A stretch of DNA of 45,000 nt from Takakia lepidozioides (Eukaryota > Plantae > Bryophyta). The DNA is taken from positions 1 to 45,000 of the forward strand of contig JAKLZA010000318.1 of the NCBI GenBank assembly GCA_030704615.1, in the 5' to 3' direction. Below the pieces are notes generated by a model that saw nothing but the letters and a program-made list of their open reading frames with translations, made no database searches and was not told the DNA's origin. The translations under genes were made by a program, and so were the position numbers. This document shows positions 2,458 through 44,097 of the stretch, in pieces (the first letter of the stretch is position 1; each line of letters starts with the position of its first letter).

Positions 2458-2480
2458 TGTCGCGGCCCTTTGCCTTGAGG

Positions 2481-2531
2481 GGGGGCTGCTATTTCATGAG
2501 CCATGAGCCATGAGCGGCATGAGCCATGAGC
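2481..2531 (+). repeat. Left terminal inverted repeat plus five CATGAGC subterminal heptamers
   Basis: CTATTTCATGAGCCATGAGCCATGAGCGGCATGAGCCATGAGC mirrors the GCTCATG run at 17011-17114. Confidence 0.85.
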
Positions 2532-3507: not shown

Positions 3508-4135
3508 CCTTGCAAAGGAGGACCTGAGGACGACTTGGATGCCGATGACCTTGCGGACAGCTACGAAGCCCTTAGATTTTGGAAATGATACGAAGCGGAA
3601 GAGCAGTCCGGCCTCCAAAATGGAGCATCTGGGTCACACGTACCCACCGACGGAGGTGGAACGTGTTCATCACGCCAGCGGTGGATGAAGCCATACATCT
3701 TTCTCATCAACAAGTTATAGTTTGAGATCTGCCACCGAAGTCCATCCCCCCGGATGGAAATTCGGCGCCGCATTTACATCGAAGAGGGGATGGACTTCGT
3801 CGTGTCCAGTGGCTATCGGCCCACCTGGCAGTGACTGCCCATAGTTTGCATGGCAGGGTAGGAAACTGAAACGGCTACATTCATGCAGCAGCCAATCTTC
3901 ATCGGTCCAGGATCCTGTACGGGGGAAATTTAAATGTGCCCTGGAGTGTGCCCTGGAATGTACCTCACTTCTGTATGACTGTGTTTCATTGTGTTGAATA
4001 ACTCTCGGATTTGGCCCACTGTTTACAATTTGATGTCTCATTTCTACAATTTGTCTGTCTGGTTGAATAAAGCAGAGTAACCGGTATGTGAGTCATGTGT
4101 CAAGAATATACCAGAGTAACGCCATGTCGGACATT

Positions 4136-4880
4136 GAAATGCGGCACCGCATTTCCATGTCGGCATGAAATGCGGCGCCGCATTTCCATGTCGGCATCGA
4201 AATGCGGCACCGCATTTCCATGTCGGACATCGAAATGCGGCACCGCATTTCCATGTCGGACAAGAAAATGCGGTGGATCATTTCCGTCCAGGTACACGAA
4301 ATACCAACACGGGTCTATAAATTGATCAGAAAACGAGGTTGGCATTGCAAATGCGGCGACGCATTTCCAGCTTGGCAATGGAAACTTCTTTTTGGACAAG
4401 GGAATGCGGTGCCGCATTTCCGTCCAACACTTCGAAAAGTGCACCTATTTCCGACCAGCGCGATGGAATGCGTTACCGCATTTCCGAGAGAGGGTCTGCA
4501 AATTGACAAATTGCGATGTCCGTTCTGGAAATGCGGCGCCGCATTTCCATGTCCGTCATCGATTTTTTTTTACAATGGAATGCGGTGCCAGTTTTTGCTG
4601 ATGGGTCTGCAGTTCGAACAACCACCATCCCCAATATGGAAATGCGGCACCGCATTTCCAATCCCGCCATGTCGGCCTCCTTGTTCGACCTCCTTGTTCG
4701 ACCTCTGTAAGCGTGGTGGCATCCATGCAATGAGCGGGAGAGGCCAAAACTGGCGTGTGGACAAAGGAAATTTTGGAAATGCGGCACCGCATTCCCAATT
4801 CAGATTACTTTTTACTATGCCAACATTGAAATGGAAAAATTAGTCCCTCCCCTGTTTTGGAAATGCGGTGCCGCATTTCC
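4136..4880. repeat. Left cluster of about a dozen GGAAATGCGGYRCCGCATTTCC palindromes; first four in 31-33-bp tandem units
   Basis: Units such as GAAATGCGGCACCGCATTTCCATGTCGGACATC at ~4136, 4167, 4199 and 4232, then dispersed copies to ~4880. Confidence 0.9.
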
Positions 4881-5068
4881 AAAAGAGGTTCTTAGAGTTG
4901 CCAAAATTTTGGAAATGCCCTGACCCATTTCTGATTTTGGGAGCGTCCTGGTTTGGGCGATTGTGTGGCTGGAATGCACACTGGAGAGGGGTCACGAATG
5001 TCGGGCAGAATTTTCTTTATATACTCTGGAAGAGAATTTACATTTACAGAGACTTCATTAAAATTCTA

Positions 5069-8000
5069 TTAATCTTGAAAATCATCGGAATCCTCATCCT
5101 GTTCTAGACTGTCCTGCTCCTCCTCCACCCCCTCAGTGCCTCTCTCATCTCCAGCGGACTGCTCGTTGGCCAGGCTTTCGAAAATCCCATCTTCCCCTTG
5201 CGGAACTGTCCATCTCACCTCCGTTGGGTCGTCCTCCTCCCTGTCTGCGTCGCTCTCATCCGCTGAATCACATATGTACTTTCGTACTCGTCTACCTGTC
5301 TGAGCTGCTGCCAACTCTTTCCTTATCCTTCTGTCCTCCCTAGCCCTCTCCAAAATCTGCTCTACTTTACTGGGATTCTCACTTCTTCTAATCGCTGTAT
5401 TTGCGAGTTTAGCTGCATAACTAGGAAGGGAGTAGTCCCTCACCGGGCTCGTCATGAAGTCGGCCCTCGCAAAGAACGGGACATTCTTCCTGGCAGGAAG
5501 TGTAGGCCCTACATGTTTCGACCCGGACCCTGCAATCCTGCACATGACAATCATCAACGAGACTAATGAGAACCACAGTCGGGAAATTCCTTTGACATAA
5601 ATGACCCAGAAGGCTTTGCAAACTTACAATGTTTGCACTCACTCGTATTCCGGGTTCTCCTCTGCATCAATGTCCACTGTGTCTTCCTCGGACTCCGACG
5701 AATCCGAGGAGACTTCCGCTCTGTCGGGAGCCTTCACATTCCGTTGCAGCCCCTCCAGATGGGATCCCCACACGGATGAATCCTCCTCGTAGGCAAAGAG
5801 GTGCCGGTCGGAAAACCGCCCAGCCCACATTGAGGCACCTGTTACAATGCCATCCACACATTACCACATGGCGCTTCAGATGTTGCGAACTACATCCTAA
5901 CGAGAATTTGCAGAACAGCAGAGATCAAGATTCTGCATACCTGTCCCACAGATGAGGTCCAGCACTGTGCCCTCCACGTCTGTGCATGTCTCCATAATTG
6001 TCTGAATGAAGGCAGGGCTCCGAGTCCGTGAGTACCGCAGGGGTTCCGTTGAAGTGAGGCTATGAGGGAGAAGTTCCTTGGGAACGTTGTTGAACAGAAC
6101 GTCGTAATCGAGTGGGTCGCAGTTCGGGTCAACCTTTCCTCCCTCCTTCCGGAAAGCAAAGGTGGAGTTTTCCTTCACAAAGCAGTATGCATCGAACTGC
6201 TTCGTCTGCATACACAGGGGGAAAACGATTAGAAACCGAATGCGGCACCGCATTTGAAAGCACCCAAGCAAATAAATGGACGAGTGCCAGTGTCGTAATC
6301 ACCTTCTTCCCTTCCGACCGAAGGCCCAGTGTGTTGATGCACGTCCACTTCTTTTTCAGAATCGGGACGGCGCTCTTGCGGGTCCACTTCGCAATTCCTG
6401 TCTGAGTGTTTTTTCCTCTGCTCGCCAGGACAACCACACAGCCTCTGTCGTCCAACACCATGCGGGCAAGCCCGAATCCTTTCTTCCAAAAGTCCTCCGA
6501 GTACCTGTTCCAAGATGGCAAAGCTTGCAGTCCTTCCACAGGCTCTCCGTCCGGAATATCCAAGATGATCATATCGCAAGACCACTCGGTGGCATTTCCG
6601 CCCCTCCTACAATCCTTGTCTGCACACACCCTCTCAAAGAACGAGACCATATTCTGAAATCCTGGGGTGTCGGAAGGCTCTTCGGCAGTCGCCTTCTTCA
6701 GTGCTCTGCCCTTCAGACCCTCCATGGTCTTCATGTATGCCAACTTGGCTGCCCGTCCATCCAAAGCCGCCAAGAAACTCTCATTTACACACTGGACTAC
6801 AGTTTCGGGAGCCACTTTCGGCCTCTTCATTTCCACCGGCTCGAAAGGGTGCCCCCCTGGGGGGTTGAAGAGTGCCTTCTTTGCCGAGCCAGTTCTCGTG
6901 CCTCTGGTGACAACGGTGGGCACAGGGGAGGCAGCCTGCGTTTGGGGGGGTGGGCTGGTTGCAAAGTCTCCATCGGAGTCCTCTTCCTCACCCTCTTCCT
7001 GAACAGGCTGTTTCTGCTTCTTCGTTTTGGCGGGTGTCACAACAGCTGCTCCTTGCTGGCGAGTCCTCTTCTTCGACCCCTTCTGTTGGGCCTGCACAGC
7101 TGCATCCACCGTCTTTTGTGCCATCTCAGCTGCCTTTCTGGATTCTTCCAGAGCAGCAGATTCCTTTGCCGACTTTGGCCCAGCAGGGACACGTCTTTCC
7201 TTTCTCTTCTCTTCTGCCAAGGCGTGCAGATCTTTCTCAGACTCGTCAACAATACCGCCAGACATGTCCAGGTACCACGGGCATCCAACGAGATGCGCGG
7301 GATGCCATTGTTTCTGCATCTCGGGTGTGTAGACACAGCTTGGGCCCGCCACGGTCCAAGCCATGAAGAACGGGGGCTCTTGAGCCAGGGCCCCTGTCTG
7401 AAGGAGCACGTATTTCATATACCTGCAAGGCAGTCAGCATGCGTGAGCAAAACTTGAGACCAACCTACTGGCAGAGTGCCACCGAAAACATAAAATGCGA
7501 ATGCGGTGCCGCATTTCCGAGACAAACCTCGTAACCAGGCTTCGCATACAAGGGCAGCTGTGCTTCACCTGTAAACAATTCGCATTGCAGCTTTCCCCGC
7601 TCCCTCCTGATGTGTAAACTCCACGCTCCTTCTTGCTGTCTGTAGCTCTCTGGCGAAAAGGTTGTCCTTGTACGCACATCTGAAACGTGTCACGTAGTCT
7701 TCCAATGTCTGTGTTCCATCCCATTTGACGTACAAGCCGAACGAATTTGTGTGCATTACGACTTGCTCCTTTGCATTCGACATTACCTGCCATTCCCAAA
7801 TGCATTGTCACGTAGCAGTTCAGGGAATTCATGTCAGAAAAGCAAATCTGGGGAAGTACCTTGAATTACCTGGAACCACCAAGTCATACGGTTGAGCCAC
7901 ACATCCACTGCAGGGTCGGAAACTTCCAGTGGAAAAGACCACATTGTCCTTATGCTCTCGGATGCATTCCAGATCGACAGCCACCGTGTCTGCCATTTCC

Positions 8001-9982
8001 GATCCAATGTCAGTGGCTGGAAGAGAGTGGCTATTGCTAGGAAGGAAATTCAGTGCATTGAAACCTCACCTTCTCTTTCGCCTCCACACATGCCGTTGAG
8101 AGGTGATGCAGTTTCTCCAATTGCATGGTCGGCTGCATGGCCCGAGAATAGTGTTTTGCAATCTCGGGGATGAAGTCCTTTCCAAGTGCCGGATCTGCAA
8201 TTGCCACCAGCTTCACAAGCTTTGACTTGTATTTGGTTCTGGACTTGACACCGGCTTCCTTCAAGTGCTCAGTCAATGACTGCAACGTTTTGACCTGCCC
8301 CTCACTTTCCATGAAGAAGCGTTTGGCATGGGCCAAATCCAGCTTGATGTTTGACTGCCAACAAAAACATGCAGAAGCGTTACATTCGATTCATGTGGAA
8401 ACATTACTGGAAATTGGGGAAGGATGAGCAGAGGGAAATTGGAGCACGACTTACTTCGTATATCACCTCCACCATTCCATCCATAGTGAGACGATACCAT
8501 GTCCGGTCTGTTTTTGCAACGGCTTTCTGAATGAGCTCCGGCTCCAGCATTTCCGCAAACATCTGCGGATCAGTAAGACCAGTTTTCCTCACCCTGTACA
8601 GCATATGTGCCATGTGGGTATGCACGTACGCATTCTCAGTGACCCTGCAAGGCACACTCTCCAGTTCAGTACACGGAAGCACGGAATCAAACCAGAATGG
8701 AAACCGAAATGCGGCACCGCATTTCGAATGTGCTAGGGAGGGTATGAGTATCTTACGAGTTGAGGTCCGCCATGGCATTCTTGAGGAGGGAGGAGTCTGC
8801 CGCCTTCACCTTGAGGATGACACACTCCACCATGTAATGCCAGCCAATGTGCTTGGCATGGTTCTGCTTGATGTACTCCCACCAGGCGAGAAGTCGGTGA
8901 TTCCCGTCCCACACAAAGAACATTTTTCCCGACATATGGCCGAAGTCGGGATCACCCTTCAGCGTCGCCTCGAATTCGTGGTTGCGAGTGTGCCAGTGGG
9001 TATCCCACGTTGACAATTCATCGGCAGTGGGTCCACGGGTTTCGCCGTCCTCATTCTCTATGGAAACGTAAAACGCTGCCGATCCCAGACGGTACCCTTC
9101 TCGAAATGCGAACTTGAGCTTATCCACATCTCCGGGAAGGGCCTGCCTGACGATGGGAAGGGAGACCATGCGACAGAGTGGGATTCGAAGAGTCCGCTGG
9201 AATACCCTGCTGCCCAGAACTCTGCCAATGCTACTGTGTGTCTCCTCCAACATTTTATCCGCTGCACTTTTGAAATCCTCCGGAGACATGTCTGTAGGTG
9301 CCGGTAGTGGCTGAGCAGCTGGAGCATCCTCAACTGGAGCTGCACTCTGGGGCCTGTGTGCGGGCAATTCTGCCACTGCAGAGGCCTCCTCCGGGCCTGC
9401 TAGCTCATCGGTGGTGAGGTCTGCCTGCGAACGTTCAGCGGCAGCACCCTCCTCCGGTACCAAATCGAGATCAACGGTCGATCCCATTGCCTTCGCTGCA
9501 GCAGAGTCGGCCCCAACATCTGCAGGCGGGAAATCCTCCAGGAACTGAGCTTCAGCTCGTGGAAGCGGTTTTGCGGGAGATTGTTCGCCGTCGCCCTGAT
9601 TGCCTTCTGCTTCCTCATCCTTGCAGGTGAAGGTGTCTGCTGCAATAGAATCTGTCTTCTACCCTGCTGCTTCATTCGCGTTGGGGGGGTGAATCGGCCT
9701 GAGCCGGTTCAGAAGCCAGTAGAGGGACGGGCTGCTTCTTCTTCGACTTTGCTGGAGAAGGGCCCGACCCCTGCTGGCGATTCTCCATGATCGAAGAACG
9801 CGAGTCGATCTCTGAGACTTTGAACTTGCCCTTCGAAGACGCGTCTTTGAATCGCAGAGGGCTAGGCCCGGCAGGAGTACCCGCGCTCGGGGATCGGGTG
9901 GGTGTACGTGCTGCAGCTAGCTCCTCGGACTCTTCCTGCGGCTCTTCGGATTCCTGCGATCCCTCCAGCACGTCCACCTTTC
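5069..9982 (-). CDS. Spliced ParB/Srx-like domain + beta-class N6A/N4C DNA methyltransferase-fold protein (roughly 1350 aa); a few 1-nt indels
   Basis: Inferred exons: 9982-8757, 8644-8455, 8354-8070, ~8017-7870, ~7785-7569, 7422-6303, 6205-5941, 5838-5643, 5537-5069, with GT-AG boundaries where resolved. ParB-like IPLCRMVSLPIVRQALPGDVDKLKFAFREG...VWDGNHRLLAW. MTase-like DMIILDIPDG, RSPAFIQTIMETCT and, across an intron, VLDLICGTGASMWAGRFSDRHLFAYEED. Confidence 0.8.
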
Positions 9983-10071
9983 CTGTTAGGCATGCAAACA
10001 TGTTCTGCATTCAAGTCTCCTAGCATTCAGTCTAAGAATTACAGAAGCAAAATGGGGGGTTCGGTGCTCGA

Positions 10072-10626: not shown

Positions 10627-12240
10627 CGAATGCGGCGCCGCATTTCCGTTAAGTACCATCACTGCTACACATCCGTACTTGTTGGAAGAAAATGCGGCAC
10701 CGCATTTCCGTTCCACCTTCACATACCTTAGTTGTTGAACGGAAATACGGTGCCGCATTTCCGTCCCACAGCTCCATGTATGAGATTCAGAAGGGAAATG
10801 CGGCGCCGCATTTCCGTTCCCACTTCACATACGTTAGTTGATGAATGGAAATGCCGTGCCACATTTCCGTTCGGGAAAGTATAGAGGTCTCACCTGGACA
10901 GAAATGCGGTGTCGCATTTCCGTCTGGAAAGGTTGAAGGTCTCACATGGATGGAAATGCGGCAACACATTTCCGTAGCACAGCTCCAGCCAGGCCGAATA
11001 TACAAAACGGAAATGCGGCGCCGCATTTCCGTTCGAGAATGTCGGAAGGTGCGACTCGAACGGAAATGCGGTGCCGCATTTCTGTACCCGTTGCGCACGA
11101 TTTTCAGTCAGAATGGAAATGCGGTACCGCATTTCCGTTCTGTAGAGTATTAACGTCTGACGCTGGCGGAAATGCCTTCCCGCATTTTCGTTCCACAGCT
11201 CCATGCCTCACATACAAAACGGAAATGCGGTGCCGCATTTCCGTTTTGGAATGTCGGATGGTGGGACTCCGGAAATGCGTACCGCATGCGGATACCCAAT
11301 TGCCGCATTTCAATTTCAATGTTTCAGGATATTTCACAGAACGGAAATGCGGTTCCGCATTTCCCTTTTAAATCTAATACATTCCGTTCTGGAATGTTGG
11401 GAGGTGCGACTCGGATGGAAATGCGTTGCCGCATTTCAGTTCCGATGGTTCACGATTTTCAGTCAGAACGGAAATGCGGTGCCGCATTTCCGTTCTGGAA
11501 TGATGGTAGGTGCGACTCGGATGGAAATACGGTGCCGCATTTCAGTTCAGATAGTTCACGATTTTCAGTCAGAACGGAAATGCGGTGCCGCATTTCCGTT
11601 CTGGATAGTGTGAATGTCTCAACCGGTCGGAATTGCGCTGTATGAAGCTGTCGGAATCTTACTCGGCTCCAGGCATCAGATACAAAATGGAAATGCGGCG
11701 CCGCATTTCCTTTATGGAATGTCGAAAAGTGCGACTCGGACGGAAATGCGGTGCCGCATTTCTGTTCCCGTTGTTCATAATTCTCAATCAGAACGGAAAT
11801 GCGGTACCGCATTTCCGTTCCACCTTCACATACCGTGCTTGTTGAATGAAAATGCGGTACCGCATTTCCGTTCTCGAGAGTATGAATGTCTTTTAAGGAC
11901 GGAAATGTGCTGCAGCATTTCTATCCCTCAGCTCCATGCATCAGATACAAAATGGAAATGCGGCGCCGCATTCCCGTTCTGGAATGTCGAAAAGTGCGAC
12001 TCGGACGGAAATGCGGTGCCGCATTTCTGTTCCCGTTGTTCATAAATCTCAATCAGAACGGAAATGCGGTACCGCATTTCCGTTCCACCTTCACATACCG
12101 TGCTTGCTGGATGGAAATGCGTTACCGCATTTCCGTTCTGGAGAGTATAAAGGTTTCCCCCGGACGGAAACTCGGTGCCGCATTTCCGTCGCTCTGTTGC
12201 ATGACCAAGATGCAATACGGAAATGCGGCGCCGTATTTCC
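10627..12240. repeat. Central array of ~29 22-bp palindromes (GGAAATGCGGYRCCGCATTTCC) with 53-bp periodicity
   Basis: Palindrome starts at 11689, 11742, 11795, 11848, 11901, 11954, 12007, 12060, 12113, 12166 and 12219, exactly 53 apart. About five recurring 31-bp spacer types form a 265-bp higher-order unit. Lies between the two divergent genes. Confidence 0.95.
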
Positions 12241-12669
12241 GTCCACCAGCAATCGACAGAATCACTCGGGACGGGAAATCTGGAACCTCAATGGGTTGCA
12301 TTGTTCCGAAACAACACAATTGCGGCCAGTCTTGATGAGCACAACTTGGTTGTCTGACCGTTTTAACCAGCAGTCCTGGCACTTGTCAGTGCGAACGTTC
12401 CTGTCTGCACCGAGAATACTGCTGGATCCACCCTCAGGAGAAACTGTCAGGAGATGTTATTTCGTCGCCGAATCGGCCATCATTGTCCTACTCACTGGCT
12501 ATGGAATCAAACCTCCCACCTTCATGCATGTAGCTTGAAACAATACTTTCCACTTCAATGTGCGACTTCCAATCGTCGATGGACTCCGCAGATCCACTTA
12601 GATGGTGCCTGTGAGCCTTGGTCTGTCGCTATACTGAACCTCGCACTTGCCAACTCCGTGCGGTGTTCG

Positions 12670-15600
12670 ATGGCTCCGAATTCCTACGCTATAGTTTGCT
12701 GTCCTCCGCAACTTGGGAGAGCCTGGATCCCAAACGAGGGAGGACTTTGCAGAGTGACTGAAACTTACCTTTGTTCCAAATTCAAGCTCAAACCGGCACA
12801 GTTTATTTGGAAGAAGAAAGGAAGGATGTTCCTGGACAGGTTGACGAGACCATTGTCGTGCTAGGTAACGACGGAGGTTGCGGAATCGAATGGCACGTTC
12901 CCCCGTCAGACACCATCCTGTACCGAGCTGTGGGAATGCCCATTCCCTTTCCGAATCAGTCGCTGCCCACACCATCCACAAAGGAGTCCGGAAACCGAGA
13001 GGCGGCCACTGCCACAGAGAGGTATGCAACGATAATCATTCCCGACCTGGACCGTCAAGACCCTCCATAGCTTCTCGTGTGGACGTATTCGACATTTCCG
13101 ACGAGGAAGATGATTGCATTGAGGTACCCATGTCCTCCACACGGTCGTTCAAATCCGGCATGGACGTCTCTGTAGGTGCTACGCATGTGCCCTCGAGCAT
13201 AACTCCAACCCGGTCCATTGTGCAGCTCCTACGACAACATCACCTCGATGGTTCTCGCTCCGAGCTGGCTGCTCTCGACTATGCCAAATTCCCAGTCAGA
13301 AAGGTAACTTTTCTGCCTCCCGAAGTCGATGGCAATGTCATCTTCGAGTTTCCACCTGTTTCTTCGTCAAAGAAAGCCTCCGGGATGTTAACAGACATGG
13401 ATCGAAAGCATGACGGACACCCCTGGTGTGTGACGAAGACCAGTAGCACGAAAATTGCTGATGGTGTTCGTGTACGATATGTCCTCTGTGCGGGGAAGCT
13501 GAGGTGCCTCAATCCCACCTGCTTCCACTTTCTCTCCAAAGGAGGGCGGAGAAACGAGACGGATTGGACTGGCACAACGCATCATCCATTCATTGTCTCC
13601 AGCCAAGCTCCTGCGGGTTCTTTCAAGTGTGCACATTGCAAAGAACCACCGACGTGCATGTCCATGTGCAGAGCCAAGCAATATTACGTAATCCATTTGC
13701 TCCCGGACTTGACTAGAGCTTGCATACACGTTGGGGTCCACTGCCACCCCTTGGCGAGAGGCAACATGCGTGAGGCTGTGCAGGAAGCACACGACATCAT
13801 AAAAGAGGAGGTGAAATTGAGCCCCGGAGCCAGACCAAAGCAGATTCAGCTGAAGGCAGCCCACAAGATTGCTCTTGGCAAAATCATGTCTGAAGATGGT
13901 TCCGACCGAGAGCCCTTGACCGAAGACGAGATGCGTGACCTCTTGGAGTCCGTCTCGCACGTTTGTAGTCCGAATGTGCGGAATCACATCGTATCTTGCA
14001 AGGAGTTCGGCAGGGGGTCGGACATGTACTCAATCCTGGAGGTGAAACGAATGACTGGATATGACTACATCCAAGGTAGCAGGTTTCCAGGGCAAGGCAG
14101 CGAATCCGATCGTTGTTACATTTTCAAAATGTCGACGTGTGGGCCTGGGAGTGGAGTCGACTTGGTCACTCGCATGACAACTGGAAACTTGTCGAATGCT
14201 TGGGTGATGTTTGATCACATCAAGCGAATTACAAACCATCAGTGGGGTGACTATGGGTGCGCATGTTTATGACTATCACTCCAAGAGGCTCATGACGATT
14301 GCAATCTGCGAGATGAAAGGGGAGGACACACAGTCCGAGATGCATCTGTGGGAGGGCATAAACCAGCAGATGGCAAGGGCGGGATTGCCAGAGCCCAATT
14401 TCAGGGGATTCATGGCAGACAACGCTCAGGCCAACTGGGCAGCGGTGCGGCGTGTGTACGGTGAGGACCCCAATGTTCCAATGGAGGGGAAAGAGAGATC
14501 CTGTGGATTCCATTGGATGCAGAGTCTATCCCACTACACTACCAAATTTGTTGCTAGCTCATTCCCTGAACACCGTGTCCTTTGTACGGCGTGGAAGGAT
14601 GCACCCACATTTGATGACGCGGAGGTTAAGTTTGCTATCATCGAGGCTGGTGGAACACGTCAGGTGCAGGGAGACAACCAATCTGGGAGCATTGCACAGC
14701 TGGTTGGGGTGGTGGCATTTTCGGTATCGACAGTTCGGACAGTACATGCGGGAGGTAGGCTGCTGTCATTTTCGTTCATTTGTCTTTCTGTTACGGACAT
14801 TTCGATTGGTCCCTCACCGTTGTTTGTGTCCTTCTAGGAGCGGTGCTTGGATTCCGACACGGACATGCCGAACACGAATATGGCAGAATCGGTCCACTCC
14901 TCCTGGCGAGCGTCTTCTGCCGCACATCTGGTGGACGTAGTGACGGCCACAACGGAGGACATCGACAGAGCAATCATGCAGCAAGCCACGTACTACAAGT
15001 TCCTGAGCGGCAAACAATGGGGCTTTGGGCCGGACAGGGAGGAATTGTTGGTACGAACAGCTTCGAGGTCCAAGAATCCAGTGAAATGGGCGACAGCATT
15101 GCGAGAGAAGATCAAAGGGACGCCTCTGCACCGCAGAGGTGAACACCTAGAGGGGGACGTCCGGACTCGCCCTGTCAGGCGGAGGATTGAAGAGGAACCC
15201 GGTGCGAAGAGGATTCCTGGAGATCCGACAGGAACATTCGGACAGCACCTCGAGGTCCCGTCATGTTGCCGCACAATGTGTCTTCCAGCAGTGGAAGCCC
15301 AAGAAATTCCAGATCGCCGTCGCCTTCAACCGGGGATTTCGTGCAACAAATTCCCACCGCTCCCTTGCCCCACATTCCGCCCGCTGTTATGCAGTATGGC
15401 CAAGCCATTGTGGAGACGACTGTGTCTGCCTCACAGTGGAGAATTGCTCGCACAAAGCCGTCGTTTCGAGGAAGGTGTTCCGCAATTCGTGTGGATACAC
15501 GGCAACGTTGTTTAGAGATGATAAGGAGGAATCCAGATGGGGCTGTCCCTGCTCCTACTTTTACAGGAAGATTTGTCCATGCAAAGTTTGCGGAGGCGAC

Positions 15601-16266
15601 AACCACCCAGTTCTGGTTCTGCAGGCACGACATTATGACTTGCGTGTATGGAAAGCCCAAGTACGGCATACAGACAATGCCAGAGGCTCCCCCGGTGTGG
15701 CCGGTGGAACCAGGCTGCGATCTGAGTCAGGTTGAGGCCGACGCCCTTACCGCCGCAGGATTTCGGATGGTGCAGCGCACTGACGTGCCCAGACAACCAT
15801 TTCCGCTTCCACAGCCTCCACCACCGACCCCTGTGAGAGCAAGAACAATGGGACACGACAGCTCTAAGCATCCTACACACCGTTGGGGGAAACCGAAGAG
15901 GCGGCGACCTCCCTCAAAAGTGAACGAGACAAGGATGGGGAATGCACTTCGGATGAACTGTACAATCCAGAGCTCGACAGAAGTGCCCCCACCAGGATTC
16001 GGGCGTGTGTATCAGATGGCCACGGCGGGCTCAGCTGTTCGCAATGAGGTGTACACCATCACCATTTCAGAATTACCCACCTGCAATTGCACCGACTTCC
16101 AGATCATGGCGAACAAGGGGCATCATACTGCCCTTGCAAGCATTTGTACTACGTGTACCTAAAGAGACTCCGTTGTAATTCCACAACTCATCACTTCATA
16201 CATGCACCAGGGTTGAGCCCCCAGGAGGTTCACACTCTTCTGAATATGGATCCAGGGGACCAGTGA
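12670..16266 (+). pseudogene. MULE transposase, family A copy 1 (several 1-3-nt indels relative to copy 2)
   Basis: Near-identical to 39638-43245; intron 14755-14837. Motifs VMFDH, FMADNA, CGFHW, NMAES and SWIM CNCTDF are present but split over frames. Confidence 0.85.
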
Positions 16267-17010
16267 GCTTGGCTTGCGGTCCACATACAATGGTACGCCC
16301 ATCGGATAGTAGAACTGTACTGCTGCCAGTACCTCAGACTCTGGCCACACAAAGGTCCGACATATGTCTTGCCTACCAGTAACCTGTTTTGATCGAACTA
16401 AGATATTACTATATCGTTCACTTGTTTCCACGTGCATGTATTTTTGTATGTTGGAGGGTTCATGTTTTTCTGCTTTCCGAAAACTTGCTCTCCTCATTCG
16501 ACCTCCGACAAGGAAATGCGGCGCCGAATTTCCAAGTATCGTCGTAGGTACCCCAGAGGCGGCCTTCGCCAACAACCAAACCGCTCCGAAATTTCGCACG
16601 TGCGAACCCTAATGCGGCACACCCTATTTCCCAGTTCAGTTGCAAACCTTTCCCGCCGAATACCCGAAGAAGACAGAATTGTGAAGTACTGCATACTGTA
16701 TTGGTGCAGACTCCATTGGTTCAATCGCGGCAAAAGGGTCAGCTTCATTCCAATGTTAAGGCATGTAAAACCGCGGAATACTCTATACAGGCCAGTATGC
16801 GACGTCCTTTTGCAGTGGTATACTGGATTTCCCGTTGCACGGTCACTTATTTCCATGAGCGGATCTATAAAACCATGAGCGGACTTGTTACTGACGACAT
16901 ATCTTCGCCGCATTACATGATCTGGAACGTCCAAAAACGGCAAGGTCAAATAAAAAACTATTATTTTAATACTTGTTTAATCTGCCGCATTTCCAAATTT
17001 GGAGGAGTCC

Positions 17011-17114
17011 GCTCATGAAATCCGCGTATCTTAGACTTTCGGCTCACCGCTCATGCGGCTCATGCGGCTCATGGCTCATGGCTCATGGTTTCTGCTCATG
17101 AAATAGTAAACCTC
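17011..17114 (-). repeat. Right terminal inverted repeat with GCTCATG subterminal heptamers
   Basis: GCTCATGCGGCTCATGCGGCTCATGGCTCATGGCTCATGGTTTCTGCTCATGAAATAGTAAACCTC; the same end occurs at 44097. Confidence 0.9.
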
Positions 17115-20100: not shown

Positions 20101-20176
20101 TCTCCCCTCTGCATGGAAATGTAGCTCTATGCTCGTGAGGAGGGCAGTACACTATAGCGCTCGGGTTTTCTGCCAT
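17115..20176 (-). pseudogene. MULE transposase, family B (frameshifts, internal deletion near 19315, 3' end lost)
   Basis: MAENPSAIVYCPP start, GMLTDMDRKYDGHPWCVTKT, WVMFDHIKRITNHQWVTM, NFRGFMADNAQANW and ERSCGFHF are all colinear with the A transposase. Confidence 0.85.
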
Positions 20177-22125: not shown

Positions 22126-22174
22126 GTCTCGTGGATGAGAACGGCTCGGGCGGAGGGAGGTGGGTTGCCTCCAA

Positions 22175-31109: not shown

Positions 31110-31265
31110 TGTGAACCCAAGTTGAGATTCTATGTCAATATGAACATAGACTGCACACGGCATCTCTGCAGGTTGCATCAACCGCGAACAAGAAGCTCAA
31201 AAAGTGTATCCAAAACGGCCAAATTGGGCACTGTTTGAATTGATCAGAAAACGAGGTTTGCATTG

Positions 31266-31830
31266 CAAATGCGGCGACGCATTTCCAGCTTGGCAATGGA
31301 AACTTCTTTTTGGACAAGGGAATGCGGTGCCGCATTTCCGTACAACACTTCGAAAAGTGTGACATTTCTGACCAGCGCGATGGAATGCGTTACCGCATTT
31401 CCGAGAGAGGGTCTGCAAATGGACAAATTGCGATGTCCGTTCTGGAAATGCGGCGCCGCATTTCCATGTCCGTCATCGACTTTTTTTTACAATGGAATGC
31501 GGTGCCAATTTTTTGCTGATGGGCCTGCAGTTCGAACAACGACCATCCCCAATACTGAAATGCGGCACTGCATTTTCAATCCCGCCATCTCGACCTCGTT
31601 GTTCGACCTCTGTAAGCGTGGTGGCATCCATGCGATGAGCGGGAGAGGCCAAAACTGGCGTGTGGACAAAGGAAATTTTGGAAATGCGGCACCGCATTTC
31701 CAATTCAGATTACTTTTTACTATGCCAACATTGAAATGGAAAATTTAGTCCCTCCCCTGTTTTGGAAATGCGGTGCCGCATTTCCAAAAGAGGTTCTTAG
31801 AGTTCCCCTGTTTTGGAAATGCGGTGCCCC
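31266..31830. repeat. Left palindrome cluster of A copy 2
   Basis: Dispersed GGAAATGCGGYRCCGCATTTCC copies equivalent to 4347-4920. Confidence 0.85.
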
Positions 31831-31972
31831 ATTTCTGATTTTGGGAGCGTCGTGGTTTGGGCGATTGTGTGGCTGGAATGCACACTGGAGAGGGGTCACG
31901 AATGTCGGGCAGAATTTCCTTTATATACTCTGGAAGAGAATTTACATTTACAGAGACTTCATTAAAATTCTA

Positions 31973-34900
31973 TTAATCTTGAAAATCATCCGAATCCTCA
32001 TCCTGTTCTAGACTGTCCTGCTCATCCTCCACCCCCTCAGTGCCTCTCTCATCTCCAGCGGACTGCTCGTTGGCCAGGCTTTCGAAAATCCCATCTTCCC
32101 CTTGCGGAACTGTCCATCTCACCTCCGTTGGGTCGTCTTCCTCCCTGTCTGCGTCGCTCTCATCCGCTGAATCACATATGTACTTTCGTACCCGTCTACC
32201 TGTCTGAGCTGCTGCCAACTCTTTCCTTATCCTTCTGTCCTCCCTAGCCCTCTCCAAAATCTGCTCTACTTTACTGGGATTCTCACTTCTTCTAATCGCT
32301 GTATTTGCGAGTTTAGCTGCATAACTAGGAAGGGAGTAGTCCCTCACCGGGCTCGTCATGAAATCGGCCCTCGCAAAGAACGGGACATTCTTCCTGGCAG
32401 GAAGTGTAGGGCCTACATGTTTCGACCCGGACCCTGCTATCCTGCACATGACAATCATCAACGAGACTAATGAGAACCACAGTCGGGAAATTCGTTTGAC
32501 ATAAATGACCCAGAAGGCTTTGCAAACTTACAATGTTTGCACTCACTCGTATTCCGGGTTCTCCTCCGCATCAATGTCCACTGTGTCTTCCTCGGACTCC
32601 GACGAATCCGAGGAGACTTCCGCTCTGTCGGGAGCCTTCACATTCCGTTGCAGCCCCTCCAGATGGGATCCCCACACGGATGAATCCTCCTCGTAGGCAA
32701 AGAGGTGCCGGTCGGAAAACCGCCCAGCCCACATTGAGGCACCTGTTACAATGCCATCCACACATTACCACATGGCGCTTCACATGTTGCGAACTACATC
32801 CTAACGAGAATTTGCGCATACCTGTCCCACAGATGAGGTCGAGCACTGTGCCCTCCACGTCTGTGCATGTCTCCATAATTGTCTGAATGAAGGCAGGGCT
32901 CCGAGTCCGTGAGTACCGCAGGGGTTCCGTTGAAGTGAGGCTATGAGGGAGAAGTTCCTTGGGAACGTTGTTGAACAGAACGTCGTAATCGAGTGGGTCG
33001 CAGTTCGGGTCAACCTTTCCTCCCTCCTTCCGGAAAGCAAAGGTGGAGTTCTCCTTCACAAAGCAGTATGCATCGAACTGCTTCGCCTGCATACACAGGG
33101 GGAAAACGATTAGAAACCGAATGCGGCACCGCATTTGAAAACACCCAAGCAAATGAATGGACGAGTGCCAGTGTCGTAATCACCTTCTTCCCTTCCGACC
33201 GAAGGCCCAGTGTGTTGATGCACGTCCACTTCTTTTTCAGAATCGGGACGGCGCTCTTGCGGGTCCACTTCGCAATTCCTGTCTGAGTGTTTTTCCTCTG
33301 CTCGCCAGGACAACCACACAGCCTCTGTCGTCCAACACCATGCGGGCAAGCCCGAATCCTTTCTTCCAAAAGTCCTCCGAGTACCTGTTCCAAGATGGCA
33401 AAGCTTGCAGTCCTTCCACAGGCTCTCCGTCCGGAATATCCAAGATGATCATATCGCAAGACCACTCGGTGGCATTTCCGCCCCTCCTACAATCCTTGTC
33501 TGCACACACCCTCTCAAAGAACGAGACCATATTCTGAAATCCTGGGGTGTCGGAAGGCTCTTCGGCAGTCGCCTTCTTCAGTGCTCTGCCCTTCAGACCC
33601 TCCATGGTCTTCAGGTATGCCAACTTGGCTGCCCGTCCATCCAAAGCCGCCAAGAAACTCTCATTTACACACTGGACTACAGTTTTGGGAGCCACTTTCG
33701 GCCTCTTCATTTCCACCGGCTCGAAAGGGTGCCCCCCTGGGGGGTTGAAGAGTGCCTTCTTTGCCGAGCCAGTTCTCGTGCCTCTGGTGACAACGGTGGG
33801 CACAGGGGAGGCAGCCTGCGTTTGGGGGGGTGGGCTGGTTGCAAAGTCTCCATCGGAGTCCTCTTCCTCACCCTCTTCCTGAACAGGCTGTTTCTGCTTC
33901 TTCGTTTTGGCGGGTGTCACAACAGCTGCTCCTTGCTGGCGAGTCCTCTTCTTCGACCCCTTCTGTTGGGCCTGCACAGCTGCATCCACCGTCTTTTGTG
34001 CCATCTCAGCTGCCTTTCTGGATTCTTCCAGAGCAGCAGATTCCTTTGCCGACTTTGGCCCAGCAGGGACACGTCTTTCCTTTCTCTTCTCTTCTGCCAA
34101 GGCGTGCAGATCTTTCTCAGACTCGTCAACAATACCGCCAGACATGTCCAGGTACCACGGGCATCCAACGAGATGCGCGGGATGCCATTGTTTCTGCATC
34201 TCGGGTGTGTAGACACAGCTTGGGCCCGCCACGGTCCAAGCCATGAAGAACGGGGGCTCTTGAGCCAGGGCCCCTGTCTGAAGGAGCACGTATTTCATAT
34301 ACCTGCAAGGCAGTCAGCATGCGTGAGAAAAGTTGAGACCAACCTACCGGCAGAGTGCCACCAAAAACATAAAATGCGAATGCGGTGCCGCATTTCCGAG
34401 ACAAACCTCGTAACCAGGCTTCGCATACAAGGGCAGCTGTGCTTCACCTGTAAACAATTCGCATTGCAGCTTTCCCAGCTCCCTCCTGATGTGTAAACTC
34501 CACGCTCCTTCTTGCTGTCTGTAGCTCTCTGGCGAAAAGGTTGTCCTTGTACGCACATCTGAAACGTGTCACGTAGTCTTCCAATGTCTGTGTTCCATCC
34601 CATTTGACGTACAAGCCGAACGAATTTGTGTGCATTACGACTTGCTCTCCTTCGCATTCGACATTACCTGCGATTCCCAAATCCATTGTCACGTAGCAGT
34701 TCAGGGAATTCATGTCAGAAAAGCAAATCTGGGGAAGTACCTTGAATTACCTGGAACCACCAAGTCATACGGTTGAGCCACACATCCACTGCAGGGTCGG
34801 AAACTTCGAGTGGAAAAGACCACATTGTCCTTATGCTCTCGGATGCATTCCAGATCGACAGCCACCGTGTCTGCCATTTCCGATCCAATGTCAGGAGCTG

Positions 34901-36865
34901 GAAGAGAGTGGCTATTGCTAGGAAGGAACTTCAGTGCATTGAAACCTCACCTTCTCTTTCGCCTCCACACATGCCGTTGAGAGGTGATGCAGTTTCTCCA
35001 ATTGCATGGTCGGCTGCATGGCCCGAGAATAGTGTTTTGCAATCTCGGGGATGAAGTCCTTTCCAAGTGCCGGATCTGCAATTGCCACCAGCTTCACAAG
35101 CTTTGACTTGTATTTGGTTCTGGACTTGACACCGGCTTCCTTCAAGTGCTCAGTCAATGACTGCAACGTTTTGACCTGCCCCTCACTTTCCATGAAGAAG
35201 CGTTTGGCATGGGCCAAATCCAGCTTGATGTTTGACTGCCAACAAAAACATGCAGAAGCGTTACATTCGATTCATGTGGAAACATTACTGAAAATTGGGG
35301 AAGGATGAGCAGAGGGAAATTGGAGGACGACTTACTTCGTATATCACCTCCACCATTCCATCCATAGTGAGACGATACCATGTCCGGTCTGTTTTTGCAA
35401 CGGCTTTCTGAATGAGCTCGGGCTCCAGCATTTCCGCAAACATCTGCGGATCAGTGAGACCAGTTTTCCTCACCCTGTACAGCATGTGTGCCATGTGGGT
35501 ATGCACGTACGCATTTTCAGTGACCCTGCAAGGCACACTCTCCAGTTCAGTACACGGAAGCACGGAAACAAACCAGAATGGAAACCGAAATGCGGCACCG
35601 CATTTCGAACGTGCTAGGGAGGGTATGAGTATCTTACGAGTTGAGGTCCGCCATGGCATTCTTGAGCAGGGAGGAGTCTGCCGCCTTCACCTTCAGGATG
35701 ACACACTCCACCATGTAATGCCAGCCAATGTGCTTGGCATGGTTCTGCTTGATGTACTCCCACCAGGCGAGAAGTCGGTGATTCCCGTCCCACACAAAGA
35801 ACATTTTACCCGACATATGGCCGAAGTCGGGATCACCCTTCAGCGTCGCCTCGAATTCGTGGTTGCGAGTGTGCCAGTGGGTATCCCACGTTGACAATTC
35901 ATCGGCAGTGGGTCCACGAGTTTCGCCGTCCTCATTCTCAATGGAAACGTAAAACGCTGCCGATCCCAGACGGTACCCTTCTCGAAATGCGAACTTGAGC
36001 TTATCCACATCTCCGGGAAGGGCCTGCCTGACGATGGGAAGGGAGACCATGCGACAGAGTGGGATTCGAAGAGTCCGCTGGAATACCCTGCTGCCCAGAA
36101 CTCTGCCAATGCTACTGTGTGTCTCCTCCAACATTTTATCCGCTGCACTTTTGAAATCCTCCGGAGACATGTCTGTAGGTGCCGGTAGTGGCTGAGCAGC
36201 TGGAGCATCCTCAACTGGAGCTGCACTCTGGGGCCTGTGTGCGGGCAATTCTGCCATTGCAGAGGCCTCCTCCGGGCCTGCTTGCTCATCGGTGGTGAGG
36301 TCTTGCTGCGAAAGTTGAGCGGCAGCACCCTCCTCCGGTACCAAATCGAGATCAACGGTCGATCCCATTGCCTGAGCTGCAGCAGAGTCGGCCCCAACAT
36401 CTGCAGGCGGGAAATCCTCCAGGAACTGAGCTTCAGCTCGTGGAAGCGGTTTTGCGGGAGATTGTTCGCCCGTCGCCCTGATTGCCTTCTGCTTCCTCAT
36501 CCTTGCAGGTGAAGGTGTCTGCTGCAATTGAATCTGTCTTCTACCCTGCTGCTTCATTCGCGTTGGGGGGGGTGAATCGGCCTGAGCCGGTTCAGAAGCC
36601 AGTAGAGGGACGGGCTGCTTCTTCTTCGACTTTGCTGGAGAAGGGCCCGACCCCTGCTGGCGATTCTCCATGACCGAAGAACGCGAGTCGATCTCTGGGA
36701 CTTTGAACTTGCCCTTCGAAGACGCGTCTTTGAATCGCAGAGGGCTAGGCCCGGCAGGAATACCCGCGCTCGGGGATCGGGTGGGTGTACGTGCTGCAGC
36801 TAGCTCCTCGGACTCTTCCTGCGGCTCTTCGGATTCCTGCGATCCCTCCAGCACGTCCACCTTTC
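31973..36865 (-). CDS. ParB-like + DNA methyltransferase-fold accessory gene, A copy 2
   Basis: Same exon structure as copy 1. The ParB exon is fully open (419-aa ORF 35634-36893). 1-nt indels occur at ~33290 (T run) and ~34648. Confidence 0.8.
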
Positions 36866-36954
36866 CTGTTAGGCATGCAAACATGTTCTGCATTCAAGTC
36901 TCCTAGCATTCAGTCTAAGAATTACAGAAGCAAAATGGGGGGTTCGGTGCTCGA

Positions 36955-37161
36955 TCAGCTGCGCGCAGCCCGATCGCATGGAGCTCTCACTGGTGGCTGG
37001 GTTGCCTGAGTGGCCTGCTGCTCGGAGATGGCAATCTCCTCCTGTAGACGCATCTGCTTCCTCCCCTTCGGCATTGGCCTACGTCCGAAGTATAATTTCC
37101 GGAGCTTGCGACGAGGTCTCCTGTCTGGTGCACGAACTCCCCCCCTCTCAGGTTCGAGCAT
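36955..37161 (-). CDS. Short basic ORF or first exon, A copy 2
   Basis: Identical peptide to 10072-10278. Confidence 0.5.
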   Translation of the reverse strand: MLEPERGGVRAPDRRPRRKLRKLYFGRRPMPKGRKQMRLQEEIAISEQQATQATQPPVRAPCDRAARS

Positions 37162-37511
37162 AAGAAGAACAGAGAGAGGGAAAAGGGCCAAAGAGTGCAG
37201 ATGGAAAGGGCGCGAGAGGGGTGACTGAGGAGACACGACAAAAGTAGATGAAACGGCGGTGATGCACCACTTGGGTTCGAAAGGGTTGGACGAAAGTGTC
37301 TCCTCGGGGAGTTTGCGTCATTACGAAATTCGAATCGTTGAGGGTACGCCTGCCGTCCGAAAAACAAACATCATTATCCAACGGTCAGGCCGCGCCGCCT
37401 CATGCCCCTTCAGTCAGATAGAGTGCCGACATGTGCAGCAATTCCGTTGCTCCACGTGTTCACATTTCAAGGTATTTCCGTCCCAGCGTCTGATGAGTTG
37501 GAGCGAAAATG

Positions 37512-39208
37512 CGAATGCGGCGCCGCATTTCCGTTAAGTACGATCACTCTGCTACACATCCGTACTTGTTGGAAGAAAATGCGGCACCGCATTTCCGTTC
37601 CACCTTCACATACCTTAGTTGTTGAACGGAAATACGGTGCCGCATTTCCGTCCCACAGCTCCAAGTATGAGATTCAAAAGGGAAATGCGGCGCCGCATTT
37701 CCGTTCTGGAATGTCGAAAGGTGCGATTGGACGGGAATGAGGCACAACATTTCAGTTCCCGTGGTTCATGATTTTCAATGTGAACGGAAATGCGGTACCG
37801 CATTTCCGTTCCCACTTCACATCCGTTAGATGATGAATGGAAATGCCGTGCCACATTTCCGTTCGGGAAAGTATAGAGGTCTCACCTGGACAGAAATGCG
37901 GTGCCGCATTTCCGGTCGGAAAGTTTGAAGGTCTCACATGGATGGAAATGCGGGTACACATTTTCGTAGCACAGCTCCAGGCCCCATATACAAAACGGAA
38001 ATGCGGCGCCGCATTTCCGTTCTAGAATGTCGGAAGGTGCGACTCGAACGGAAATGCGGTGCCGCATTTCTGTTCCCGTTGCGCACGATTTTCAGTCAGA
38101 ATGGAAATGCGGTACCGCATTTCCGTTCTGTAGAGTATTAACGTCTGACGCTGGCGGAAATCCGTGCCGCATTTTCGTTCCAAGCTCCATGCCTCACATA
38201 CAAAACGGAAATGCGGCGCCGCATTTCCGTTTTGGAATGTCGGAAGGTGCGACTCCACGGAAATGCGGTACCGCATTTCAGTTCCGATGTTTCAGGATAT
38301 TTCATCAGAACGGAAATGCGGTGCCGCATTTCCCTTTTGAATCTAATACATTCCGTTCGGAATGTTGGGAGGTGCGACTCGGATGGAAATGCGTTGCCGC
38401 ATTTCAGTTCCGATGGTTCACGATTTTCAGTCAGAACGGAAATGCGGTACCGCATTTCCGTTCTGGAATGTTGGTAGGTGCGACTCGGATGGAAATACGG
38501 TGCCGCATTTCAGTTCAGATGGTTCACGATTTTCAGTCAGAACGGAAATGCGGTTGCCGCATTTCCGTTCTGGATAGTATGAATGTCTCAAGCGGTCGGA
38601 ATTGCGCTGTATGAAGCTGTCGGAATCGCACTCGGCTCCATGCATCAGATACAAAATGGAAATGCGGCGCCGCATTTCCGTTCTGGAATGTCGAAAAGTG
38701 CGACTCGGACGGAAATGCGGTGCCGCATTTCTGTTCCCGTTGTTCATAAATCTCAATCAGAACGGAAATGCGGTACCGCATTTCCGTTCCACCTTCACAT
38801 ACCGTGCTTGTGAATGAAAATGCGGTACCGCATTTCCGTTCTGGAGAGTATGAATGTCTTTTAAGGACGGAAATGTGCTGCAGCATTTCTATCCCTCAGC
38901 TCCATGCATCAGATACAAAATGGAAATGCGGCGCCGCATTTCCGTTCTGAAATGTCGGAAAAGTGCGACTCGGACGGAAATGCGGTGCCGCATTTCTGTT
39001 CCCGTTGTTCATAAATCTCAATCAGAACGGAAATGCGGTACCGCATTTCCGTTCCACCTTCACATACCGTGCTTGCTGGATGGAAATGCGTTACCGCATT
39101 TCCGTTCTGGAGAGTATAAAGGTTTCCCCGGACGGAAACTCGGTGCCGCATTTCCGTCGCTCTGGTGCATGACCAAGATGCAATACGGAAATGCGGCGCC
39201 GTATTTCC
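37512..39208. repeat. Central 53-bp-phased palindrome array of A copy 2
   Basis: As 10627-12240, with two additional units at ~37703-37808. Confidence 0.95.
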
Positions 39209-39637
39209 GTCCACCAGCAATCGAAAGAATCACTCGGGACGGGAAATCTGGAACCTGAATGGGTTGCATTGTTCCGAAACAACACAATTGCGGCCAGTCT
39301 TGATGAGCACAACTTGGTTGTCTGACCGTTTTAACCAGCAGTCCTGGCACTTGTCAGTGCGAACGTTCCTGTCTGCACCGAGAATACTGCTGGATCCACC
39401 CTCAGGAGAAACTGTCAGGAGATGTTATTTCGTCGCCGAATCGGCCATCATTGTCATACTCACTGGCTATGGAATCAAACCTCCCACCTTCATGCATGTA
39501 GCTTGAAACAATACTTTCCACTTCAATGTGCGACTTCCAATCGTCGATGGACTCCGCAGATCCACTTAGATGGTGCCTGTGAGCCTTGGTCTGTCGCTAT
39601 ACTGAACCTCGCACTTGCCAACTCCGTGCGGTGTTCG

Positions 39638-42600: not shown

Positions 42601-43245
42601 AGGCACGACATTATGACTTGCGTGTATGGAAAGCCCAAGTACGGCATACAAACAATGCCAGAGGCTCCCCCGGTGTGGCCGGTGGAACCAGGCTGCGATC
42701 TGAGTCAGGTTGAGGCCGACGCCCTTACCGCCGCAGGATTTCGGATGGTGCAGCGCACTGACGTCCCCAGAGAACCATTTCCGCTTCCACAGCCTCCACC
42801 ACCGACCCCTGTGAGAGCAAGAACAATGGGACACGACAGCTCTAAGCATCCTACACACCGTTGGGGGAAACCGAAGAGGCGGCGACCTCCCTCAAAAGTG
42901 AACGAGACAAGGATGGGGAATGCACTTCGGATGAACTGTACAATCCAGAGCTCGACAGAAGTGCCCCCACCAGGATTCGGGCGTGTGTATCAGATGGCCA
43001 CGGCGGGCTCAGCTGTTCGCAATGAGGTGTACACCATCACCATTTCAGAATTACCCACCTGCAATTGCACCGACTTCCAGATCATGGCGAACAAGGGGGC
43101 ATCATACTGCCCTTGCAAGCATTTGTACTACGTGTACCTAAAGAGACTCCGTTGTAATTCCACAACTCATCACTTCATACATGCACCAGGGTTGAGCCCC
43201 CAGGAGGTTCACACTCTTCTGAATATGGATCCAGGGGACCAGTGA
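39638..43245 (+). CDS. MULE transposase, family A, apparently intact (~1174 aa, 2 exons)
   Basis: Exons 39638-41731 and 41815-43245. DDE motifs WVMFDHIKR, FMADNAQA and TNMAESVH; CGFHW (CxxH); GCM-like CAGKLRCLNPTC..CAHC..HVGVHCHP; SWIM CNCTDF..CPCKH. The start was chosen by alignment with family B. Confidence 0.92.
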
Positions 43246-43994
43246 GCTTGGCTTGCGGTCCACATACAATGGTACGCCCATCCTTTTCGGATAGTAGAAC
43301 TGTACTGCTGCCAGTACCTCAGACTCTGGCCACACAAAGGTCCGACATATGTCTTGCCTACCAGTAACCTGTTTTGCTCGAACTAAGATATTACTATATC
43401 GTTCACTTGTTTCCACGTGCATGTATTTTTGTATGTTGGAGGGTTCATGTTTTTCTGCTTTCCGAAAACTTGCTTTCCTCATTCGACCTCCGACAAGGAA
43501 ATGCGGCGCCGAATTTCCAAGTATCGTCGTAGGTACCCCCAGAGGCGGCCTTCGCCAACACCAAACCCGCTCCGAAATTTCGCACGTGCGAACCCTAATG
43601 CGGCACCCTATTTCCCAGTTCAGTTGCAAACCTTTCCCGCCGAATACCCGAAGAAGACAGAATTGTGAAGTACTGCAGACTGTATTGGTGCAGACTCCAT
43701 TGGTTCAATCGCGGCAAAAGGGTCAGCTTCATTCCAATGTTAAGGCATGTAAAACCGCGGAATACTCTATACAGGCCAGTATGCGACGTCCTTTTGCAGT
43801 GGTATACTGGATTTCCCGTTGCACGGTCACTTATTTCCATGAGCGGATCTAAAAAACCATGAGCGGACTTGTTACTGACGACATATCTTCGCCGCATTAC
43901 ATGATCTGGAACGTCCAAAAACGGCAAGGTCAAATTAAAAACTATTATTTTAATACTTGTTTAATCTGCCGCATTTCCAAATTTGGAGGAGTCC

Positions 43995-44097
43995 GCTCAT
44001 GAAATCCGCGTATCTTAGACTTCGGCTCACCGCTCATGCGGCTCATGCGGCTCATGGCTCATGGCTCATGGTTTCTGCTCATGAAATAGTAAACCTC
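43995..44097 (-). repeat. Right terminus of A copy 2
   Basis: Same GCTCATG run and terminal TAGTAAACCTC as copy 1; flanks differ immediately afterwards. Confidence 0.9.

What the first reader, a model, noticed from the sequence alone, without database searches (positions are those of the whole stretch)
6206..8756. Single palindromes sit inside three introns of the accessory gene and none in its exons
Seen: copies at ~6238-6255 (intron 6206-6302), ~7499-7518 (intron 7423-7568) and 8706-8725 (intron 8645-8756), plus one downstream of the transposase (16512-16533). No full site was noticed in coding exons. Isolated copies in ~100-150-nt introns are hard to explain by tandem slippage. Established: VANC target motifs in VANDAL elements likewise accumulate in non-coding parts. 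Inference: selection distributes binding sites along the whole element.
Basis: partly seen in the sequence, partly recalled or inferred. Interest (0 to 1): 0.7.

Follow-up and report, generated by a model that had tools for sequence, protein, structure and literature searches.

The report
Intron palindromes in a ParB transposon
A plant jumping gene carries the same 18-letter mirror-image DNA word once in each of three old introns of its second gene and never in that gene's exons, likely as landing sites for the predicted ParB-like protein of that gene; related algal elements are already proposed to recognise themselves this way.

Summary
AAATGCGG-NN-CCGCATTT lies at 6238, 7499 and 8707, one copy in each of 3 of 8 modelled introns. 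No exon site scores near them (shuffles give none). The three introns were not seen spliced in RNA contigs, but their positions match those of a palindrome-free homologue, so the sites were gained inside old introns. The gene encodes a ParB/Srx-fold domain and a degenerate methyltransferase-like domain, in a 14.6-kb Mutator-like element with 45 sites. In 15 of 40 homologous locus clusters a family-specific palindrome of the same build recurs; 0 of 91 sites are centred in coding matches, and different introns are used. 'Along the whole element' fails: 4.3 kb of transposase, intron included, has no site. Selection on the intronic copies is not shown; relatives carry tandem arrays in introns, so singles may be shrunken arrays. 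Best reading: binding sites of the element's ParB-like protein (0.55). ParB cargo with adjacent inverted repeats is published for algae, intronic motifs for VANDAL. This scan noted the same intron pattern in other genomes before.

The parts
6238..6255 (.). single palindrome in intron 6206-6302, 1 mismatch
7499..7516 (.). single palindrome in intron 7423-7568, 1 mismatch; shares its variant left flank with the first array unit at 10628 (14 of 24 flank bases)
8707..8724 (.). single perfect palindrome in intron 8645-8756
16514..16531 (.). single palindrome downstream of the transposase
6206..6302 (-). GT-AG intron, phase 0; homologue L003 has a phase-0 intron 3 columns away, and the diverged window copy has one at 44478
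7423..7568 (-). GT-AG intron, phase 2; same column and phase in L003; L002 reads through the junction without an intron
8645..8756 (-). GT-AG intron, phase 2; same column and phase in L003; 42 of 63 homologous predicted proteins end within one residue of this point
5069..9983 (-). accessory gene (5' end not fixed, possibly near 10192): ParB-like domain, helical middle, low-complexity linker, methyltransferase-like domain, acidic tail. Five further introns without a site: 8355-8454, 7990-8069 and 7787-7869 (the last two spliced in run X1), 5839-5940, 5538-5642
8759..9208 (-). predicted ParB/Sulfiredoxin-fold domain with a conserved DGNHRxxAW motif
5645..6641 (-). degenerate amino-methyltransferase-like region (DIPD in place of the catalytic motif, DLICGTG in place of the SAM-binding motif), recognised at motif level only
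10628..12238 (.). array of 28 palindromes, mostly 53 bases apart, between the two divergent genes
3758..4878 (.). cluster of 13 palindromes downstream of the accessory gene
12367..16266 (+). Mutator-like transposase, frameshifted in this copy, open in copy 2; its intron 14755-14837 has no site
2478..2531 (.). probable left end: short imperfect terminal repeat and CATGAGC repeats
17049..17114 (.). right end (same end at 44097 in copy 2); no matching target-site duplication found
31238..44097 (.). second, left-truncated copy of the element with the same intronic sites at 33119, 34378, 35588 and the downstream site at 43499

Best explanation
The three intronic palindromes are extra copies of the element's own 18-base site, likely bound by a dimer of the predicted ParB-like protein that the surrounding gene encodes. 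Shown: the sites, their confinement to non-coding DNA, the age of the introns, the two-gene element, and the recurrence of family-specific 8+2+8 palindromes around and inside homologous genes. Predicted: the ParB/Srx fold. Inferred: copies spread from the arrays by conversion or by growth and shrinkage of repeats, survive only outside exons, and are kept because loading points about every 1.2-1.9 kb let the protein cover its own gene, to keep it free of host silencing or to regulate it. The methyltransferase-like domain probably acts as a binder or altered enzyme rather than a classic N4C/N6A methylase.
For: Fixed arms with a free 2-base centre (TG 17, CG 11, CA 9, TA 6, other 2 of 45), as expected of a dimer's DNA site. 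Model pLDDT 93.6; the 8 chains with Z of 5 or more are KorB, sulfiredoxins, PadC, SerK, a ParB-N domain, Atu1540 and SbnI (best Z 7.8, rmsd 2.7, 91 aligned; grouping as ParB/Srx superfamily recalled); Foldseek ranks the same group first (best E 0.0075). In 15 of 40 clusters of 82 homologous loci, 3 or more copies of a family palindrome exceed the shuffle maximum; 0 of 91 are centred in coding matches, 22.8 expected, 0.007 when each cluster counts once. Different families use different introns. Sites sit in the ParB gene's introns, not in the transposase intron, and the other transposase at 26244-29814 has no array beside it. Published precedent for ParB cargo with adjacent inverted repeats in another transposon superfamily (10.1101/2025.02.11.637652, passages).
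Against: No binding was tested, and no helix-turn-helix was identified behind the ParB domain (one search found nothing). Best Z is under 8 and no Foldseek hit reaches E 0.001. Arms looked more conserved than spacers between the two copies (5 of 479 against 65 of 1400, p 0.0001), but this vanished when sites were defined in either copy (15 of 530 against 54 of 1345, p 0.28); intronic sites alone are uninformative (0 of 54 against 16 of 747, p 0.62). 25 of 40 clusters show no repeated palindrome (many contigs are short or decayed), and L003, an intact homologue, has none in 8 introns. Most intronic sites in relatives are tandem arrays, and many are only 'outside coding matches', not bracketed by exons. 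One L069 site overlaps an exon edge.
Confidence: 0.55

Rival explanations
1. Neutral spill-over: the arrays are the working sites; stray or shrunken copies in introns are passengers, and their absence from exons only reflects selection on the protein.
For: Relatives hold arrays of 1 to 12 units in introns, some visibly decaying. No excess conservation of intronic sites. 5 of 8 introns and the transposase intron are empty. The site at 7499 shares its variant flank with array unit 10628.
Against: All three sites are within 1 mismatch of consensus while their flanks match no array unit beyond 14 of 24 bases, and no decayed relic scores above -10 in the other introns. Their spacing is the most even of 56 triples (post hoc). 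The pattern recurs in unrelated families using different introns.
Confidence: 0.27
2. The sites are bound by the transposase, as subterminal or activating motifs, and the ParB gene only hosts them.
For: A Mutator transposase alone can activate cognate copies (10.64898/2026.08.24.746577, passages). Related transposases lie beside homologues in 3 of 40 clusters. A related transposase at 17262-20287 lies near variant palindromes at 21594-22075.
Against: Sites are not concentrated at the termini; none lies in the transposase gene; similar repeats go with ParB genes in a different superfamily.
Confidence: 0.12
3. The palindromes act as RNA hairpins in the pre-mRNA, affecting splicing or small-RNA production.
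For: Each site folds as a hairpin in its intron; intron 8645-8756 has z -2.13.
Against: The other two introns give z 0.68 and -0.84. Among 45 sites, 31 changes are one-sided and none two-sided. Positions relative to splice sites vary, and 42 of 45 sites lie outside the modelled gene.
Confidence: 0.04
4. The palindromes are the remains of insertions that created the introns.
For: One site per short intron.
Against: The same intron positions and phases occur in L003, which has no palindrome, and the 8756 position is shared by 42 of 63 homologues.
Confidence: 0.02

Closest known systems
Plavaka elements of the red alga Bostrychia, gene PAG3 (bioRxiv 10.1101/2025.02.11.637652; passages read; supplements not seen)
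   Same: Transposon accessory gene with a ParB-like N-terminal domain; tandem arrays of inverted repeats beside it, proposed as its binding sites.
   Different: EnSpm-type element; ParB fused to a 2OG oxygenase, methylase in a separate gene; arrays described as adjacent, with no intronic copies in the passages seen.
Sola1-1_Ec32 of the brown alga Ectocarpus (PMC12477816; abstract, passages and part of the reference list read; supplements not read)
   Same: About 1100-residue ParB plus N4C/N6A methyltransferase-like gene on the strand opposite to the transposase, proposed to bind and modify its own element.
   Different: Sola element in a brown alga; 'palindrom' and 'binding site' do not occur in the main text; here the catalytic motif is altered and a site is defined.
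VANDAL/VANC of Arabidopsis (PMC5735166; passages read)
   Same: Mutator-like element with short termini; family-specific motif accumulated in introns, intergenic and terminal non-coding DNA; accessory protein as reader.
   Different: VANC motifs are 9-base non-palindromic words in same-orientation tandem repeats; here an 18-base palindrome, single in introns, and a ParB-fold protein.
Bacterial ParB-parS, KorB-OB, Noc-NBS (structures hit; mechanism recalled)
   Same: Predicted fold of the N-terminal domain, a GxxRxxA-type motif, palindromic site with a short free centre in many copies.
   Different: No partition ATPase seen, helix-turn-helix not identified, eukaryotic intron-rich gene, long inserts and a methyltransferase-like fusion.

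Membership tests
Mutator-like elements (MULE) | DDE transposase of MULE type with CxxH motif and SWIM finger | tested here: met
   FDH, MADN and CGFHW motifs (motif pattern recalled); atlas hits to PF10551 clusters at 0.92 and 0.90; Pfam itself gave only SWIM at E 0.063, so support is moderate
Mutator-like elements (MULE) | 9-11 base target-site duplication | tested here: not met
   flanks of 2478 and 17114 do not match; this copy lies in a nested, rearranged region, so the two ends may not belong to one insertion
Mutator-like elements (MULE) | terminal inverted repeats | tested here: inconclusive
   only a 13-base shared core plus CATGAGC repeats
VANDAL/VANC | family motif concentrated in introns and other non-coding DNA | tested here: met
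VANDAL/VANC | short non-palindromic motif in same-orientation tandem repeats | tested here: not met
   motif is an 8+2+8 palindrome
VANDAL/VANC | accessory protein homologous to VANC | not tested
   no VANC sequence was compared; Pfam gave no hit for the exons scanned
VANDAL/VANC | sequence-specific loss of DNA methylation | not testable with these tools
   needs methylomes or transgenes
ParB/parS-type site binders | ParB/Srx fold | tested here: met
   best Z 7.8, a consistent set of top hits, each below the tools' strong thresholds
ParB/parS-type site binders | GxxRxxA nucleotide-binding motif (recalled) | tested here: met
   G 89%, N 99%, H 95%, R 86%, A 83% in 76 aligned sequences
ParB/parS-type site binders | helix-turn-helix after the N-terminal domain | tested here: inconclusive
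   profile of 8 long homologues found no such structure; region not folded
ParB/parS-type site binders | CTP-dependent clamp loading at the palindrome | not testable with these tools
   needs biochemistry
N4C/N6A DNA methyltransferases (beta class) | catalytic (D/S/N)PP(Y/F) motif (recalled) | tested here: not met
   DIPD here; DIPE, DIPD, DIKD in homologues; DVPF and DFPI in P0138 and P0142
N4C/N6A DNA methyltransferases (beta class) | profile match and SAM-binding motif | tested here: inconclusive
   PF01555 only at E 0.049 on one exon of homologue L003, 1 of 9 pieces scanned; no PDB hit
Transposon ParB-methyltransferase cargo (Sola1-1_Ec32 type) | ParB-like plus methyltransferase-like fusion of about 1100 residues opposite a transposase | tested here: met
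   architecture; direct homology to the algal protein was not tested

The most novel reading that the evidence does not exclude
A eukaryotic transposon runs a bacterial-style ParB sliding clamp: the protein loads at parS-like palindromes, and because chromatin limits sliding the element has seeded its own introns with loading sites at roughly even kilobase spacing, so that clamp and pseudo-methylase coat the gene and shield it from host silencing.
Probability: 0.2. Interest if true: 0.8.

Novelty: new variant of a known kind. Interest (0 to 1): 0.5.

Why it matters
Two algal genome papers propose that ParB-like transposon cargo proteins bind their own elements; the passages read report no test. 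This element gives a defined 18-base site, relatives with different sites for swap experiments, and three isolated intronic copies that can be mutated one by one. If they work as loading points, plants host a ParB/parS-like self-recognition system that arose apart from VANC, and each family is a ready pair of DNA-binding protein and site.

Tried and rejected
No whole genome is held for this window, so no many-copy test was possible. No RNA holder is on record; possible RNA contigs do not cover the three named introns. Pfam, PHROGs and PDB sequence searches did not name the ParB domain or the window's own methyltransferase-like exons. The single-sequence fold was too poor to use (pLDDT 46.5). 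A homologue search with the methyltransferase-like exon found nothing. Longer loci from plant assemblies could not be obtained, so linkage to transposases was seen in only 3 of 40 clusters. The apparent excess conservation of arms was dropped after a looser site definition removed it. Intron creation by the palindrome and an RNA-hairpin role were considered and rated low. No complex prediction was run. Literature searches listed no paper on intronic palindromes in ParB-carrying transposons; Iyer et al. 2011, cited by PMC12477816 for similar proteins, was not seen, and unseen supplements of the two algal papers could describe such repeats.

Full report
Observation. The word AAATGCGG-NN-CCGCATTT occurs 73 times in the window at up to one mismatch and never in 100 shuffles. 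Between 4878 and 10628 there are exactly three copies, at 6238, 7499 and 8707. Retaining any of the three truncates the protein. Matrix scores are bimodal: 29.9, 26.2 and 13.8 for the three, -3.8 for the best exon position. Uniform placement would put all three wholly in introns with probability 0.003.

Are they introns? Contigs of two possible RNA runs splice two other introns of the model (7787-7869, 7990-8069), one of which corrected my first guess of an acceptor. None bridges the three in question, and one runs 49 bases into 6206-6302 before leaving the element. Homology fills the gap. L003, an intact homologue (26% identity, E 1.6e-85), has introns at the same column and phase for 5 of the 8 window introns and a sixth, in phase, three columns away; all three palindrome introns are among these six. 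L002 reads through the 7568/7423 junction, and 42 of 63 homologous predicted proteins that reach the end of the ParB exon stop within one residue of it. L003 has no repeated palindrome, so the introns are older than the sites.

The element. It runs from about 2478 to 17114, with a second, left-truncated copy at 31238-44097. It holds a small unknown gene, 13 sites, the accessory gene with 3 sites, an array of 28 sites at a 53-base period, a divergent Mutator-like transposase and one last site. No target-site duplication was found. Kin sequences are in plant assemblies. The exon before intron 8645-8756 folds at pLDDT 93.6 with 76 sequences, and its best structural matches are KorB, sulfiredoxin, PadC, Noc and ParB, each of moderate score. 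The C-terminal region has methyltransferase-like motifs in beta-class order, but the catalytic motif reads DIPD and profile support is one E 0.049 hit on a homologue.

Across families. I examined 82 loci (2 from plant assemblies; the best 80 of 90 from metagenome contigs), which form 40 clusters. In 15 of 40, three or more copies of a family-specific 8+2+8 palindrome exceed the maximum of 10 shuffles; none of the 91 sites is centred in a coding match, against 22.8 expected, or 0.007 counting each cluster once. Many share the inner CGG-NN-CCG with the window and differ in the outer bases. L001 and L002 have sites in introns bracketed by exons, L002 with three dispersed copies in one intron; L005, L017, L027 and L065 have them on both sides of the ParB exon, in different introns. 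Against: 25 clusters show none, most intronic sites are tandem arrays, coding matches understate exons, AT-rich families are weak, and one L069 site touches an exon edge.

Is it selection? The three occupied introns give gaps of 1377, 1261, 1208 and 1921 bases, the most even of 56 triples by spread and among 5 of 56 by largest gap (post hoc, one element). The transposase region stays empty for 4293 bases although it has an intron at 14755-14837, so coverage concerns the accessory gene, not the whole element. Conservation between the two copies does not settle it: the arm-versus-spacer contrast depends on how sites are defined (p 0.0001 or 0.28), and the intronic sites alone give p 0.62. The centre varies along the series CG, TG/CA, TA, which fits decay of a methylated CpG in an unread position (inference).

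Mechanism. Most likely the accessory protein binds the palindrome as a dimer, and the intronic copies extend its footprint over its own gene (0.55). Neutral spill-over from arrays with exon exclusion is the main rival (0.27), then transposase binding (0.12). Binding, clamp activity and any effect on silencing are untested.

Known and new. ParB-methyltransferase cargo is reported in Ectocarpus (PMC12477816), ParB cargo with adjacent inverted-repeat arrays in Bostrychia, and intronic motif accumulation in VANDAL. PMC4738411 (passages) describes ParB-type helix-turn-helix methylase fusions in chlorophytes and chytrids. Seven searches listed no paper on intronic palindromes in such genes. Earlier unchecked notes of this scan describe the same system, and the one-per-intron pattern, in other genomes; one of them pointed me to the Ectocarpus passage at the same time as my own search did. 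Verdict: real, a variant of a proposed kind, testable, not unique; interest 0.5.

Noticed in passing
window 21547-25900: A related ParB-methyltransferase gene seems split: its ParB part starts on the + strand at 24261 right after a variant palindrome, while a possible N-terminal part lies on the - strand at 22130-23138 beside arrays of variant palindromes; both breaks show the same five bases. Judged by eye; tblastn did not link the two parts.
   Followed up: partly
window 2026-2460: An inverted 435-base fragment of the methyltransferase-like exon (98% identical) abuts the left end and stops 7 bases short of the intronic palindrome; contig 10 of run X2 also leaves the element inside that palindrome.
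   Followed up: no
window 2944-3633 and 20759-21331: A small unknown gene, present in two diverged copies (38% identity), lies inside the element's left arm; no Pfam hit.
   Followed up: partly
window 8871-8924, runs X1 and X2: Contigs of higher depth match only the DGNH motif region and continue as other sequence, hinting at expressed paralogues of the ParB domain.
   Followed up: no
L003:161-3756: An intact 8-intron homologue without repeated palindromes in the contig; possibly a domesticated gene.
   Followed up: partly
window 8759-9280: The atlas lists fungal DUF3723 clusters among look-alikes of the ParB-like domain (score 0.93, family on 31% of members).
   Followed up: no
window 44098-45000: Copy 2 is inserted next to a diverged methyltransferase-like gene of the same family with introns at matching positions.
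   Followed up: partly
window 12367-16266 and 9587-9690: Many single-base frameshifts of copy 1 are absent from copy 2 and from run X3 contigs, so some may be assembly errors rather than decay.
   Followed up: no
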